A stretch of 64,000 nt of DNA. Source: the human T2T-CHM13v2.0 reference genome, Homo sapiens. Of this stretch, positions 21,568 to 24,669 are shown one piece after another. Made by a program: the position numbers and the translations under genes. How positions within the stretch are numbered: the stretch's first letter is position 1; every line of letters starts with the position of its first letter. Under the pieces are notes generated by a model that ran no database searches, was not told the origin of the DNA, and was given only the letters and a program-made list of their open reading frames with translations. Where the stretch lies: NCBI RefSeq assembly GCF_009914755.1, contig NC_060936.1; one strand, given 5' to 3'.

Positions 21568-22812
21568 ACTTAAAAACTCATTTTATTATTTAAGTTAATT
21601 AAAGATACAAAGTATACGAAACAGCCATTACTATGCCTGACCCAAGATGTGTCACTAAAATAGTAACTATAGAAATGTTTAGAGGGGAGAATTTTTAGAA
21701 TAATTTTCTGGAAAGACTACAAGACTGGGAGATTGTTAATAGTTCCTAATTCCTTGGAGTGTAGATTATTTTTATAATCCTTAAAGCATAAATAAGGAGA
21801 AGTGAATTAACAGTAGACTCTCAGAGCTGTGAAAGCCACGCACTTACTCTAGGATGAATGCTTCATTAATTTTTCACACAGTGTGATGATGTTGCAATTT
21901 TCCATGAGCAACTATCAGAGCTTTCCTTCTTGATAAGTATCAAAACAGCCGAAATTACATCGAATACTCGTGCCTGTCATTGGCCGAAATATAATTTCAA
22001 TACTAGGATGTACCTAGTATTTCCAGACTCACACCCTGGCCTGGGTAACGTTACGATTACATTGTATCCACCCTGCCTAATGTCAGTATGTTTCACACAG
22101 TCACCCATTTCACCCTTCCTCTGGCTAAAGCGTTTTCCTCCTTCTGTAGACCTCTCCCCAGTGGATTTTACCTTAAATTCCACTCCCATTCCAACACCCA
22201 AGAGGCTAGATCTGTCTCCTCTACCCACACGCGGGGGCATGTCTAGATCCCCGTGATGCTGAAAAAGATGTCTCATTTGCACAGACATCAGAACCCGAGT
22301 GGGCGCGCGGCGGGCCCTGCGGTCGCCGGCGCTGATAGTCAGATGCTTTGTCTCCTGCCTGGGAAGGCCGGAGCTGCATGGACACGTATGACAGACATTC
22401 TAGAACTAATAAAAAAGAACACCACAGCCCCGCGCACAGGCAGCTCCTCCCGGACAGGCGATAGCCCAAGGCGGCCAGACCTGAGGTGACTGATCCCGCG
22501 AGGGGACGGAGGGGAGTGACGAGGGCTTTTCCCCCAGAGAAGTCAAGACGCCCCCCAGGGACCCGGCGCCGCGCAGCCGCCAGCCACCTGCAAACACAGA
22601 CGGCGTGAGGGCGGCGCAGTCGCCCTGCCAGCACCCGGCCGCGCGTGCCAGGCCAGCGGGGACTCACTGCCTCAGTTTCCTCAGCCGCAGAACCCGGCCG
22701 GGACGCCCCTCAGGTCGCTCCACCCCGGTAGCCGGTGCTCCGCGCCACAGCCAGGTCCTTGCCGCGCCCTCAACCCGCCGCCCGCCGCCCGCCGCCGGCA
22801 GACTGTCCTCAC

Positions 22813-22856
22813 CTGACAGCCACCCGCACGGAGCTCTCGTCCGGGGCGCCCAACAT
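22813..22856 (-). CDS. KIF21A: Kinesin-like protein KIF21A, coding exon 1 (MLGAPDESSVRVAVR, phase-2 donor)
   Basis: Minus strand reads gccagcATGTTGGGCGCCCCGGACGAGAGCTCCGTGCGGGTGGCTGTCAG|gtgagg; the peptide is the recalled KIF21A N-terminus including the kinesin motor first strand VRVAVR. The rest of the gene lies beyond the left window edge, so 1-22812 is intron 1. Confidence 0.96.
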
Positions 22857-22971
22857 GCTGGCGGCGGGCAGCGATCGAGCCGTTGGGCCTCGGCACCGCA
22901 GAGCTGAGGCGCCACTGGGGCCGCGGGACTCGGGCGCAGTAGGCTGGGGCGTCTGCGGGCGGGCGGCCGGC

Positions 22972-22995
22972 TCACCTCCGCCGCGCTCCAGCCAT
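22972..22995 (-). other. uORF MAGARRR* in the KIF21A 5' leader; its stop overlaps a 5' splice site GAG|GTGAGC
   Basis: caacATGGCTGGAGCGCGGCGGAGGTGA read directly; Kozak -3A/+4G; out of frame with the main ATG (139 nt upstream). Inclusion in the mRNA depends on TSS position. Confidence 0.7.
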
Positions 22996-24669
22996 GTTGG
23001 GCGACTGAATGGAAAGGTGGCGGCGGCGCTGAGGCAGCAAGAGGAGGAGGTGATTCACGGCTCGCGGGCGCCCGCCCCTTCTCCACCGCTCACCCCCCAG
23101 GATCTGGGGCGGGGACAAAGCGCGCTTGAACGGCGAGCGCGCCTGTGGAGAAGCCAACAGGCCGCCAGCGGCCTCAGGGCGGCCGGGTGAGTGCGCCCTG
23201 CCCCCTCCGGTGGGGACGCGGCCTCCCAGCGGCCAGGCTGGGGACTCCACGCCCGCCAGGGCGCTCCGGGCTCCTCGCCCCGCACTGCGTCAGCCGCCGC
23301 CGCGCGGCTCAGCCCCACCTCGCCCTCCCCCAGCCTGCGCCCCGCCCTGCCCTCGTCGGGACACTGCCTGGCGCTGCTGGGCAGGGAGGCGAGGGGGAGG
23401 GATGCCTGCCGCCGGCTGCCCTCGCCCGAGGGCGACCAGCCTGTGCGCCCTTCCAGGCTCTTCTGGGAGAAGGAAGCAGCTAGTGCACGCGCTGCTGCCA
23501 GGTCCCTTCTCAAATCGAAGCTTGATTCAGCGGCGCGCCGGGAGCCAGGCAGCTGCTGCTGCGGTTCGGCTTTGTGTCCCACGCATAGCCTTATTGTCCT
23601 CTCTGCAGCTTGGACTTTGACCCCCTTCCCTAGCCCCCAGCTGAACGCCCTCCCTCCTCCCTCCCCGGAGTCAGTCATTCATGCTAAACGGACTCCCAGG
23701 TTTGTCCACTGTCTCTGGACAGCTGGGCTGTTCTACAGTTCATCGCCCGTTTACCAGCTCGGGTGGGATATGGAAATGATTTATTCGAGACTCCTGAATG
23801 CTTTTCTGTTCAATCATTTGTACACTGGTAAATGAACTGCACCCTGGTACTGCCAAGTGTTCCCAGAACTGAATATATCCACCAAGACCTGCTGTGTAGT
23901 AAATCCTTCCAAACTGATTTTCTTTCCCTTCTGGCCTTTAAAAAGCACCTCCCAATCCCAGGATTCTCTCAACATTGACCCATTGTGGTTTCTGTTTGTC
24001 ACTATTGTGCTTCCACATGCCTTCAGATAGCTCTGTGGAAACAGCCTTTATTAGCTTTGCCACAGAGTATCTTTTGTGGACTGCTCCATACATCTCTATA
24101 AACAAACATGTGGCTTCATACGAAATAGTATCACAAATTAAATGGCACTATCCAAATAAAGGCACTACCTCAAATGCCTGCAATCTACAATCACATACCT
24201 AATCATCTTGTTCAGCAGTGATACAGCAGTGTGGCTCAGAGAAGGCTGCAACACTATGGGAAAAACAAGAAGTGTTTGATGATTTAAACCCATGGGAAGG
24301 CCGATGGGGTATATAATTATAGATAGTTTTAAATTTATTCTGTCCCTTAATCTCACTACCCCTAAATCTTAACAGACATGTAACTGGGAGGTAAAGAGGG
24401 CAGAGATGCTGAGTATCCTTCTATAGATCAAATTGGTGGGAAAGCTCTCCTCTGGCTACTCTTTGGAGGGCCTTTCCTAGCCTCAAAATTTATCCATCAA
24501 CAAATCAGAGCTGCATTTCACCCTGCCCTGGCAAGCCCATATCTGGGTGGATCTGGGCTGGCCACCTTGCTTCTTTTGTTGATGAAAGCTGCAAGGAAAG
24601 CAAGAATGGCCCAGCACATTTAACAAGAAAACTAAAGAGAAATTTGTATAATTAAGACCCTCTTTTTAA

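What the first reader, a model, noticed from the sequence alone, without database searches (positions are those of the whole stretch)
22847..23003. KIF21A upstream AUG and main AUG are mutually complementary: candidate start-codon-sequestering RNA switch
Seen: in the mRNA sense the uAUG context CGCCCAACAUG(G)CUGG (23003-22988) is the reverse complement of the main start context CCAGCAUGUUGGGCG (22861-22847). This gives 11 perfect bp, or 15 bp with a single G bulge, closing a 126-nt loop, with both AUGs inside the helix. Inference: a helix near the cap could mask both starts, and loading or translation at the uORF would melt it and free the main AUG, coupling the two initiation events. I know of no description of this for KIF21A, the CFEOM1 gene. 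Caveats: GC-rich leaders fold in many competing ways, and the self-complementary CAUG core supplies 4 of the base pairs for free.
Basis: partly seen in the sequence, partly recalled or inferred. Interest (0 to 1): 0.8.

Follow-up and report, generated by a model that had tools for sequence, protein, structure and literature searches.

The report
KIF21A leader hairpin pairing both AUGs
The two start-codon regions of the human KIF21A mRNA leader really are complementary and are predicted to close one long hairpin, but the evidence points to an ordinary structured, GC-rich leader with a cap-proximal mini-ORF, not a proven switch.

Summary
CGCCCAACAUG(G)CUGG (23003-22988) pairs with CCAGCAUGUUGGGCG (22861-22847): 11 perfect bp, or 15 with one G bulge, and a 126-nt loop. 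It is stronger than reported. In folding models it closes a 61-bp hairpin that spans the whole leader. MFE is -105.8 kcal/mol, z about -2.3, and helix pair probabilities average 0.93-0.95. The helix persists in spliced exon1+exon2.

The 5' arm is also a TISU/YY1-like element (CAACATGGCTGG, 10/12 to the consensus). It lies at +8..+19 behind a consensus initiator, and its AUG opens a 7-codon uORF (MAGARRR*).

The switch idea fares poorly in silico. Any 43S loading must melt the helix first. With a ribosome on the uAUG, the freed 3' arm refolds onto the coding sequence.

Chance is not excluded: P is about 0.002 per gene for this register.

Leu2 (UUG) occurs only in catarrhine rows. Rodents, bats, ungulates, carnivores and strepsirrhines have Trp2 (UGG), which would add one mismatch costing about 4 kcal/mol.

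No orthologous DNA, TSS mapping or probing data were available.

Best reading: a constitutive, helicase-dependent cap-proximal barrier, or a by-product. Interest is moderate to low.

The parts
22813..23006 (-). KIF21A exon 1 (194 nt): a 150-nt leader plus the first 44 coding nt. GC content is 0.76.
   Evidence: Hub annotation; sequence; composition.
23004..23009 (-). TTCAGT initiator with the annotated TSS A at 23006. It matches the human Inr consensus BBCA+1BW at 6 of 6 positions.
   Evidence: Sequence. The consensus is from the abstract of PMC5287114 as shown in the listing. No TSS mapping data were available.
22988..23003 (-). 5' arm of the helix, CGCCCAACAUG(G)CUGG (mRNA nt 4-19).
   Evidence: Pair probabilities are 0.47-1.00, mostly at least 0.99.
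22988..22999 (-). TISU/YY1-like element CAACATGGCTGG at +8..+19. It matches SAASATGGCGGC at 10 of 12 positions, and the core SAASATGGC at 9 of 9.
   Evidence: Pattern hit at 22991-22999 on the minus strand. Consensus and properties are from passages of PMC3177215 and PMC2518114.
22972..22995 (-). uORF AUG GCU GGA GCG CGG CGG AGG UGA, encoding MAGARRR*. The AUG is 11 nt from the annotated cap site, with A at -3 and G at +4. It is in the +1 frame relative to the main ORF and ends 115 nt before the main AUG.
   Evidence: It is the only upstream AUG in exon 1.
22847..22861 (-). 3' arm CCAGCAUGUUGGGCG (mRNA nt 146-160), made of the Kozak-like -5..-1 context, the main AUG, Leu2 (UUG), Gly3 (GGC) and the first base of Ala4.
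   Evidence: the hub annotation gives the CDS start at 22856.
22847..23003 (-). Leader-spanning imperfect hairpin (mRNA nt 4-160) with 61 pairs: 47 G-C, 11 A-U and 3 G-U. The reported helix is its closing stem.
   Evidence: MFE and centroid, the pair list with probabilities, and pair counts.
22894..22959 (-). Apical part of the hairpin (about nt 48-113). In the model it stays folded when a ribosome footprint covers the uORF stop.
   Evidence: Constraint folds.
22764..22800 (-). Intron 1 (GGCGGGC)n-type G-rich repeat, complementary to the C-rich tract at 22857-22873. It competes with the helix in unspliced RNA.
   Evidence: Inverted repeats I6 and I24. Helix pair probability falls to 0.00-0.02 when 200-400 nt of intron are included.

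Best explanation
The complementary AUG contexts are the closing stem of a hairpin that, in thermodynamic models, folds the entire 150-nt GC-rich KIF21A leader. The 5' strand doubles as a TISU/YY1-type element at +8..+19 behind a consensus initiator. Its AUG lies 11 nt from the cap and opens a 7-codon uORF. The 3' strand is the Kozak context plus codons 2-4 of KIF21A. The most likely working is as follows. If the helix forms in cytoplasmic mRNA, it acts as a constitutive cap-proximal barrier. It hides both AUGs and makes initiation depend on helicase unwinding (eIF4A-type). The uORF is a second, ordinary damper that is followed by reinitiation 115 nt downstream. It is not a uORF-triggered switch. 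The exact AUG-to-AUG register is most likely a by-product of two consensus-like start contexts, sharpened by a Trp2-to-Leu2 (UGG to UUG) change seen in the catarrhine rows. What is shown: the sequence, the motifs, the in-silico fold and its robustness, and the amino-acid-level variation. What is inferred: that the helix forms in cells, that it depends on helicases, that the uORF is used, and that YY1 binds.
For: The helix and the whole-leader hairpin are the MFE and the centroid, at -105.8 kcal/mol. 3 of 200 dinucleotide shuffles fold as well, giving z -2.40. The 15 helix pairs have mean probability 0.93. The value is 0.95 in spliced exon1+exon2 and 0.90-0.96 with the 5' end moved 5-120 nt upstream. 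The fold is unchanged when G-quadruplexes are allowed. Exon 1 sense has the lowest z (-2.16, or -2.3 with more shuffles) of 15 half-overlapping 194-nt windows on its strand; the others range from -1.91 to +0.74. The antisense strand gives -0.5 and -0.72. Opening nt 1-12 costs 17.1 kcal/mol and opening nt 1-19 costs 22.8 kcal/mol. [quoted passage not shown] They also report that a hairpin 6 nt downstream of a cap-proximal AUG cut TISU-driven translation by about 60% and was severely inhibitory for a strong Kozak context. The TISU-like match is 10 of 12 positions at +8..+19. In 36% of TISU genes the TISU ATG is not the annotated start, and their median 5'UTR is 192 nt (PMC2518114 passage). The TSS A sits in TTCAGT, which fits BBCA+1BW. 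Against a switch: the constraint folds.
Against: Everything structural here is in silico. There is no probing, CAGE, Ribo-seq or orthologous DNA. A z of about -2.3 is modest. The AUG:AUG register has P of about 0.002 per gene, so chance remains possible in a genome-wide scan. The helix is absent in models of unspliced RNA (pair probability 0.00-0.02), so it would have to form after splicing. The 5' arm sits at the extreme 5' end of the annotated transcript. Starts 9-12 nt downstream leave only 9 or 6 of the 15 pairs (mean probability 0.87 and 0.67), and a start 12 nt downstream removes the uAUG. [quoted passage not shown]
Confidence: 0.45

Rival explanations
1. By-product without an RNA-level role. 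The 5' arm exists as a DNA-level YY1/TISU core-promoter element, and the 3' arm exists as a Kozak context plus coding sequence. Their complementarity is coincidence. In cells the leader is kept open by helicases and scanning complexes, or most transcripts start too far downstream to carry the arm.
For: P of about 0.002 per gene for the register is small, but such cases are expected somewhere in a genome scan. Four of the pairs come free from the CAUG palindrome. Both arms resemble functional consensus sequences. Leu2 UUG is confined to the catarrhine rows, whereas 106 of the 120 rows have MWGAP (Trp2) and the other 14 have MWGSP. This explains the otherwise unusual UUG codon as one mutation from UGG, with no need for selection on pairing. 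The helix is lost in pre-mRNA models.
Against: The helix is not isolated. It closes a 61-pair hairpin, and exon 1 is the most structured window for its composition in the CpG island. The fold survives the Trp2 codon in the human background, with mean pair probability 0.875. It is also insensitive to 5' extension and to adding exon 2.
Confidence: 0.35
2. The helix masks both AUGs, and ribosome loading or translation at the uORF melts it and thereby licenses initiation at the main AUG.
For: Both AUGs are inside a helix with pair probability near 1. The whole uORF lies on the 5' strand and pairs with the 25 nt before the main AUG. A ribosome translating it must therefore unzip nt 4 to about 48 (pair list; footprint fold). 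uORF translation that remodels a leader has a precedent in cat-1 (passages of PMC11900008).
Against: Opening the helix is a precondition for any cap-dependent loading, so it is not specific to uAUG use. With nt 1-27 open, the main AUG stays largely paired (0.09 and 0.05 unpaired at nt 152-153), because the 3' arm refolds on the CDS. With a footprint at the uORF stop (nt 18-47), the 5' end re-pairs with the 3' arm, and nt 146-160 are unpaired at only 0.13. An AUG 11 nt from the cap and inside a duplex is expected to be poorly used (PMC3177215 passages). There is no conservation evidence.
Confidence: 0.08
3. A shunt or zipper hybrid. The 7-codon uORF unzips the lower hairpin. The terminating ribosome then sits at the foot of the still-folded apical hairpin (about nt 48-113). 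The 40S bypasses that hairpin and lands about 38 nt upstream of the main AUG to reinitiate.
For: The uORF is 5'-proximal and 7 codons long, beginning AUG GCU. RTBV and RTSV shunt uORFs are 7 and 6 codons with AUG GCU and AUG GCA (PMC5902531 passage). With footprints at the stop codon, the apical hairpin stays folded in the model.
Against: The defining geometry is not met. The uORF lies inside the 5' strand of the stem; in a shunt configuration it ends a few nt in front of the stem. The would-be landing region is GC-rich and refolds, whereas a shunt landing site is UA-rich and unstructured. There are no data of any kind on KIF21A translation.
Confidence: 0.05

Closest known systems
[quoted passage not shown]
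   Same: The sequence CAACATGGCTGG matches SAASATGGCGGC at 10 of 12 positions, with the core matching 9 of 9. It is in sense orientation at +8..+19 of the annotated TSS, and its ATG is 11 nt from the cap (TISU median 12 nt). It falls in the described 36% class in which the TISU ATG is not the annotated start and the 5'UTR is long.
   Different: Positions 10 and 12 deviate from the consensus. The ATG opens only a 7-codon uORF. The element is predicted to be base-paired, whereas TISU function needs accessible downstream nucleotides. YY1 binding and promoter function were not tested here.
Cap-proximal secondary structure and GC-rich structured leaders that inhibit 43S loading (helicase-dependent mRNAs)
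   Same: The helix starts at nt 4. Opening nt 1-19 costs 22.8 kcal/mol, and the whole leader folds at -105.8 kcal/mol.
   Different: Here the partner strand of the cap-proximal segment is the main start codon itself, 126 nt away; it is not a local hairpin.
cat-1 (SLC7A1) 'zipper model': uORF translation remodels a structured leader
   Same: A short uORF is embedded in a base-paired leader, and its translation would necessarily unzip that leader (cat-1 as described in PMC11900008 passages).
   Different: In cat-1 the remodelling produces an active IRES. No IRES is proposed here, and the modelled remodelling does not leave the main AUG open. I saw Yaman et al. 2003 only as a reference entry.
Pararetrovirus (CaMV/RTBV) short-uORF-dependent ribosome shunt
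   Same: There is a 5'-proximal 7-codon uORF together with a large elongated leader hairpin.
   Different: The uORF lies within the stem and does not end 7-8 nt before it. There is no UA-rich unstructured landing site.
Bacterial-type start-site sequestration (RNA thermometers and riboswitch expression platforms; named from general knowledge, no call)
   Same: A start codon is buried in a helix with a distant complementary segment.
   Different: Eukaryotic scanning unwinds from the cap, so sequestration works on loading and scanning, not on direct ribosome binding. No ligand or temperature sensor is evident. There was no Rfam match (0 hits at E up to 1).

Membership tests
TISU element | Sequence consensus SAASATGGCGGC with an invariant ATG | tested here: met
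   CAACATGGCTGG matches 10 of 12 positions, and SAASATGGC matches exactly at 22991-22999 on the minus strand (consensus from a PMC3177215 passage). Caveat: the 9-mer occurs 9 times in the window against 2.4 expected, and 5 of the 9 lie in stretches the hub lists as masked repeats.
TISU element | Strict location just downstream of the TSS (up to about +30), in one orientation | tested here: met
   The element is at +8..+19 of the RefSeq TSS at 23006, on the sense strand. This rests on annotation, not on TSS mapping.
TISU element | The ATG is used as a translation start from a very short leader | not testable with these tools
   The ATG is 11 nt from the cap but opens only MAGARRR*. No Ribo-seq or TI-seq data were available. 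The one uORF-catalogue supplement held as text was a 60-character file without KIF21A.
TISU element | Binds YY1 and supports transcription | not testable with these tools
   No ChIP data were available. The KIF21A+YY1 search returned 15 papers with low co-mention counts, seen in listing only.
CaMV/RTBV-type shunt configuration | A 5'-proximal short uORF that terminates a few nt in front of the stable basal helix of a large stem-loop | tested here: not met
   The uORF (nt 12-35) lies inside the 5' strand, and its stop codon is itself paired. The definition is from PMC5902531 passages.
CaMV/RTBV-type shunt configuration | A UA-rich unstructured landing site downstream of the stem | tested here: not met
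   The region before the main AUG is GC-rich, and it is paired or refolds.
cat-1-type zipper switch | uORF translation converts an inhibitory fold into an initiation-competent one | tested here: inconclusive
   Equilibrium constraint folds do not leave the main AUG open: nt 139-165 are unpaired at 0.26-0.35. Kinetics and IRES activity cannot be tested here.
Curated RNA family (Rfam 15) | A covariance-model match | tested here: not met
   0 matches at E up to 1 over 22500-23400 on both strands.
Evolutionarily conserved structured RNA element | Covariation or conservation of both arms across species | not testable with these tools
   No vertebrate DNA other than this genome can be reached. The only proxy is amino acids. 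Gly3 is the same in all three mammalian N-termini seen (MLGAP, MWGAP, MWGSP). Residue 2 is Leu in the catarrhine rows and Trp elsewhere, residue 4 is Ser in two lemur genera, and 2 unnamed records begin MSAGQ.

The most novel reading that the evidence does not exclude
A cap-proximal TISU-type mini-uORF is built into the 5' strand of a leader-wide hairpin whose 3' strand carries the main AUG. Initiation on KIF21A mRNA would then be cooperative. Each ribosome that engages the cap-proximal arm, or translates the uORF, holds the main start open or delivers a 40S across the remaining hairpin. Choice of TSS within about 12 nt would decide whether the device exists at all. The catarrhine Trp2-to-Leu2 change would have tightened it by about 4 kcal/mol. 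This would be a cellular zipper or shunt-like start-codon-pairing device in a neuronal disease gene.
Probability: 0.08. Interest if true: 0.65.

Novelty: new member of a known kind. Interest (0 to 1): 0.35.

Why it matters
If its leader really folds as modelled, three things follow. KIF21A protein output would be unusually sensitive to helicase activity. It would also depend on the exact transcription start within a dozen nucleotides. And it would be sensitive to single-base variants in either arm or in the uAUG, which would give a way to read non-coding exon-1 variants in patients without coding mutations. More generally, a TISU-like element that is base-paired to the main start codon would be a compact test case for how promoter motifs, cap-proximal uAUGs and structure interact. 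If it is a by-product, it is a useful caution. Two consensus-like start contexts sharing the CAUG palindrome can look like a designed switch.

Tried and rejected
1. Rfam scan of 22500-23400 at E up to 1 gave 0 matches.
2. I looked for retrocopies or repeats of exon 1 or of the 16-mer arm in the window's own genome. Only the locus itself was found, so there was no processed pseudogene to mark the mRNA 5' end.
3. A DNA conservation test was not possible. The collections hold only prokaryotic, viral, plasmid and E. coli DNA plus this genome. I used protein N-termini as a proxy.
4. The KIF21B paralogue leader was not examined. Its exon 1 could not be located without typing sequence from memory.
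5. The G-quadruplex-aware fold is identical to the standard fold.
6. The uORF catalogue supplement (PMC6283423) held only one 60-character file, which gave no information.
8. I considered a capped pre-miRNA or TSS-miRNA reading and dropped it. The hairpin is 157 nt long, and no Rfam miRNA family matched.
9. I considered the inverted repeat as a pair of YY1 sites and dropped it. The antisense copy reads CAACATGCTGG and lacks the contiguous ATGGC core.
10. The 111-aa plus-strand ORF starting at the palindromic CATG is treated as a GC-rich artefact.
Full report
OBSERVATION. Read on the minus strand (mRNA sense), exon 1 of KIF21A runs from 23006 to 22813. The 5' arm CGCCCAACATGGCTGG lies at 23003-22988 and the 3' arm CCAGCATGTTGGGCG at 22861-22847. 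They give 11 contiguous Watson-Crick pairs plus 4 more after one bulged G, with 126 nt between them. The upstream ATG (22995-22993) and the annotated start (22856-22854) are both inside the helix. The two arms alone form a duplex of -25.9 kcal/mol, and the 11-bp core gives -18.8.

MORE THAN A HELIX. Folding exon 1 as RNA gives an MFE of -105.8 kcal/mol. In it nt 4-160 form one long imperfect hairpin, and the centroid is the same fold. 3 of 200 dinucleotide shuffles fold as well, for z -2.40. The hairpin has 61 pairs: 47 G-C, 11 A-U and 3 G-U. The reported helix is its closing stem, and its 15 pairs have probabilities of 0.47-1.00 with mean 0.93. The whole uORF strand pairs with the about 25 nt that precede the main AUG.

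I located exon 2 in the window's own genome. A Pfam kinesin hit at C12:39319900-39320130 led to locus L003, and the splice sites were read. In the spliced exon1+exon2 RNA the helix keeps a mean probability of 0.95. With the 5' end moved 5-120 nt upstream it keeps 0.90-0.96. Allowing G-quadruplexes changes nothing. Across the CpG island, exon 1 sense has the lowest z (-2.16, or -2.3 with more shuffles) of 15 half-overlapping 194-nt windows on that strand; the others range from -1.91 to +0.74. The antisense of exon 1 gives -0.5 and -0.72. Rfam has no match.

RESULTS AGAINST. With 200 or 400 nt of intron 1 attached, the helix disappears from the ensemble, at 0.00 and 0.02. A G-rich intronic repeat at 22764-22800 pairs with the C-rich tract just upstream of the main AUG (I6 and I24). 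The 5' arm is at the very end of the annotated transcript, and the hub table shows no RefSeq transcript reaching beyond 23006. Starts 9 or 12 nt downstream leave 9 or 6 of the 15 pairs, with mean probabilities 0.87 and 0.67. A start 12 nt downstream also removes the uAUG. A z of about -2.3 is modest.

CHANCE. I kept both CAUG cores fixed and shuffled the rest of exon 1. A run of at least 11 WC pairs in the AUG:AUG register then arises with frequency 0.0021 in 200,000 shuffles, or 0.0093 with G-U allowed. Any perfect helix of at least 11 bp in a shuffled exon arises in 27 of 1000. This is rare for one gene, but a genome-wide scan would be expected to meet such cases (inference).

WHAT THE ARMS ARE. 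The annotated TSS A (23006) sits in TTCAGT. This fits the human initiator consensus BBCA+1BW (PMC5287114, abstract as shown in the listing). From +8 to +19 the sequence CAACATGGCTGG matches the TISU consensus SAASATGGCGGC at 10 of 12 positions, and the 9-nt core matches exactly (consensus from a passage of PMC3177215).

Passages of PMC2518114 describe TISU as follows. It is a YY1 site confined to the first about 30 nt downstream of the TSS, in one orientation. Its ATG is the annotated start in 64% of genes, with a median leader of 12 nt. In the other 36% the median 5'UTR is 192 nt. KIF21A fits that second class, with its ATG 11 nt from the cap and a 150-nt leader.

There are two caveats. The mismatches (positions 10 and 12) fall within positions 5-12, which those passages report as important. 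The 9-mer also occurs 9 times in the window against 2.4 expected, and 5 of the 9 lie in stretches the hub lists as masked repeats.

The ATG has A at -3 and G at +4 and opens MAGARRR*, in the +1 frame, ending 115 nt before the main AUG. It is the only upstream AUG in exon 1. The 3' arm consists of CCAGC (a Kozak-like -5..-1), the AUG, and UUG GGC G (Leu2, Gly3 and the start of Ala4).

COMPARATIVE PROXY. No vertebrate DNA other than this genome is reachable, so I compared protein N-termini. I searched with the exon-2 peptide (P0001) against longer proteins (120 rows listed of 4160 hits). N-termini were cut from those 120 rows plus the query itself, 121 sequences in all.
- MLGAP: 89 rows, from Homo, Pan, Gorilla, Pongo, Papio, Macaca and Piliocolobus.
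- MWGSP: 9 rows, from Lemur and Eulemur.
- MWGAP: 7 rows, from Phyllostomus, Daubentonia, Nycticebus and one unnamed record.
- MSAGQ: 2 unnamed rows.
- The remaining 14 sequences: N-terminally truncated or with other predicted starts (one of them is the query itself).

A second search used residues 1-100 of a bat protein (120 rows listed of 5032 hits). It gave MWGAP in 106 rows and MWGSP in 14. The MWGAP rows cover Marmota, Ictidomys, Callospermophilus, Ctenodactylus, Bos, Equus, Felis, Panthera, Lynx, Hyaena, Vulpes, five bat genera, Daubentonia, Nycticebus and 5 unnamed rows. The MWGSP rows are Lemur and Eulemur. This second list is biased towards the query's own N-terminus, so it shows breadth of Trp2 and not its frequency. 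New World monkeys, tarsiers and mouse were not seen.

Trp has the single codon UGG, so the U at mRNA nt 155, which pairs with A9, is most simply a derived G-to-U change on the line to catarrhines. Putting UGG into the human background leaves the fold in place (mean probability 0.875). It introduces one A/G mismatch and costs about 4 kcal/mol: the duplex goes from -25.9 to -21.7 and the MFE from -160.2 to -156.0. The perfect 11-bp run is therefore probably recent, the hairpin does not depend on it, and whether the 5' arm co-varies is unknown.

MECHANISM. Constraint folds on the spliced RNA gave these results.
- Unconstrained, the main AUG is unpaired with probability 0.06/0.00/0.00.
- Opening nt 1-12 costs 17.1 kcal/mol and opening nt 1-19 costs 22.8.
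- With nt 1-27 open (a ribosome on the uAUG), nt 139-165 are only 0.32 unpaired, and AUG nt 152-153 are unpaired at 0.09 and 0.05. The freed 3' arm pairs with downstream coding sequence.
- With a footprint at the uORF stop (nt 18-47), the 5' end re-pairs with the 3' arm, and nt 146-160 are 0.13 unpaired.
- With a 40S inside the loop (nt 60-90), the closing helix is fully restored.

The helix starts at nt 4, so any cap-dependent loading must melt it whether or not the uAUG is used. [quoted passage not shown] They also report that a hairpin 6 nt after a cap-proximal AUG cut TISU translation by about 60% and was severely inhibitory for a Kozak context, and the authors could not exclude a need for eIF4A when a TISU AUG is embedded in structure.

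Taken together, the best-supported reading is a constitutive, helicase-dependent barrier that hides both starts and may have to be opened twice, with an ordinary short uORF on top. A large share of the probability goes to the view that the helix has no role in cells at all. The shunt definition in PMC5902531 requires a uORF ending in front of the stem and a UA-rich open landing site, and neither is met.

LITERATURE. KIF21A with uORF gave 1 paper, a meeting-abstract volume (listing). KIF21A with '5 UTR' or 'upstream open reading frame' gave 16 papers holding at least 2 of the 3 terms, and none of the 12 listed was relevant by title (listing). KIF21A with YY1 gave 15 papers with low co-mention counts, 10 of them listed (listing). 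A search for precedents of uAUG:main-AUG pairing gave 37 papers; none of the 12 listed describes such a cellular case by title or abstract start (listing). PMC13334024 has no mention of KIF21A in its main text. bioRxiv supplements and most PMC supplements could not be seen, and Ribo-seq or TISU gene tables there might list KIF21A.

VERDICT. The interpretation as a switch is not supported by the computations that were possible, and it cannot be tested further here. The feature belongs to a known kind, a structured GC-rich leader with a cap-proximal TISU-like uAUG. For KIF21A it is not described in the papers I could search.

Noticed in passing
window 22852 (mRNA nt 155; codon 2 of KIF21A): Residue 2 is Leu in the catarrhine rows. 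It is Trp in every non-catarrhine mammal row that had an intact N-terminus, covering rodents, bats, Bos, Equus, carnivores and strepsirrhines. This is a non-synonymous UGG-to-UUG change that also completes the 11-bp helix.
   Followed up: partly
window 22764-22800 (intron 1) with 22857-22873: A G-rich (GGCGGGC)n-type intronic repeat is complementary (17 nt, 88%) to the C-rich tract just upstream of the main AUG. In pre-mRNA folds it displaces the leader hairpin.
   Followed up: partly
window 22857-23036 (- strand): The main reading frame has no stop in the 60 codons printed upstream of the AUG, a stretch that runs past the TSS. Near-cognate starts could therefore give N-terminal extensions. 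This was not examined.
   Followed up: no
window 22855-23190 (+) and 23055-23678 (-): ATG-started open frames of 111 aa (antisense, starting at the palindromic CATG of the main start) and 207 aa (upstream of the TSS). They are probably artefacts of stop-poor GC-rich sequence.
   Followed up: no
window 10379, 20134, 26812, 30591, 36741, 36841, 49616, 56296: The TISU core 9-mer SAASATGGC occurs 9 times in the window against 2.4 expected. 5 of the 9 lie in stretches the hub lists as masked repeats, so the motif count alone overstates promoter-type sites.
   Followed up: partly
G000:C12:39319900-39320130 (L003:207-429, - strand): KIF21A exon 2 (223 nt) lies about 73 kb downstream of exon 1, so intron 1 is very long. 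Two predicted Nycticebus isoforms begin with a different N-terminus (MSGVIAACYHIQ...), which hints at an alternative first exon in that species.
   Followed up: no
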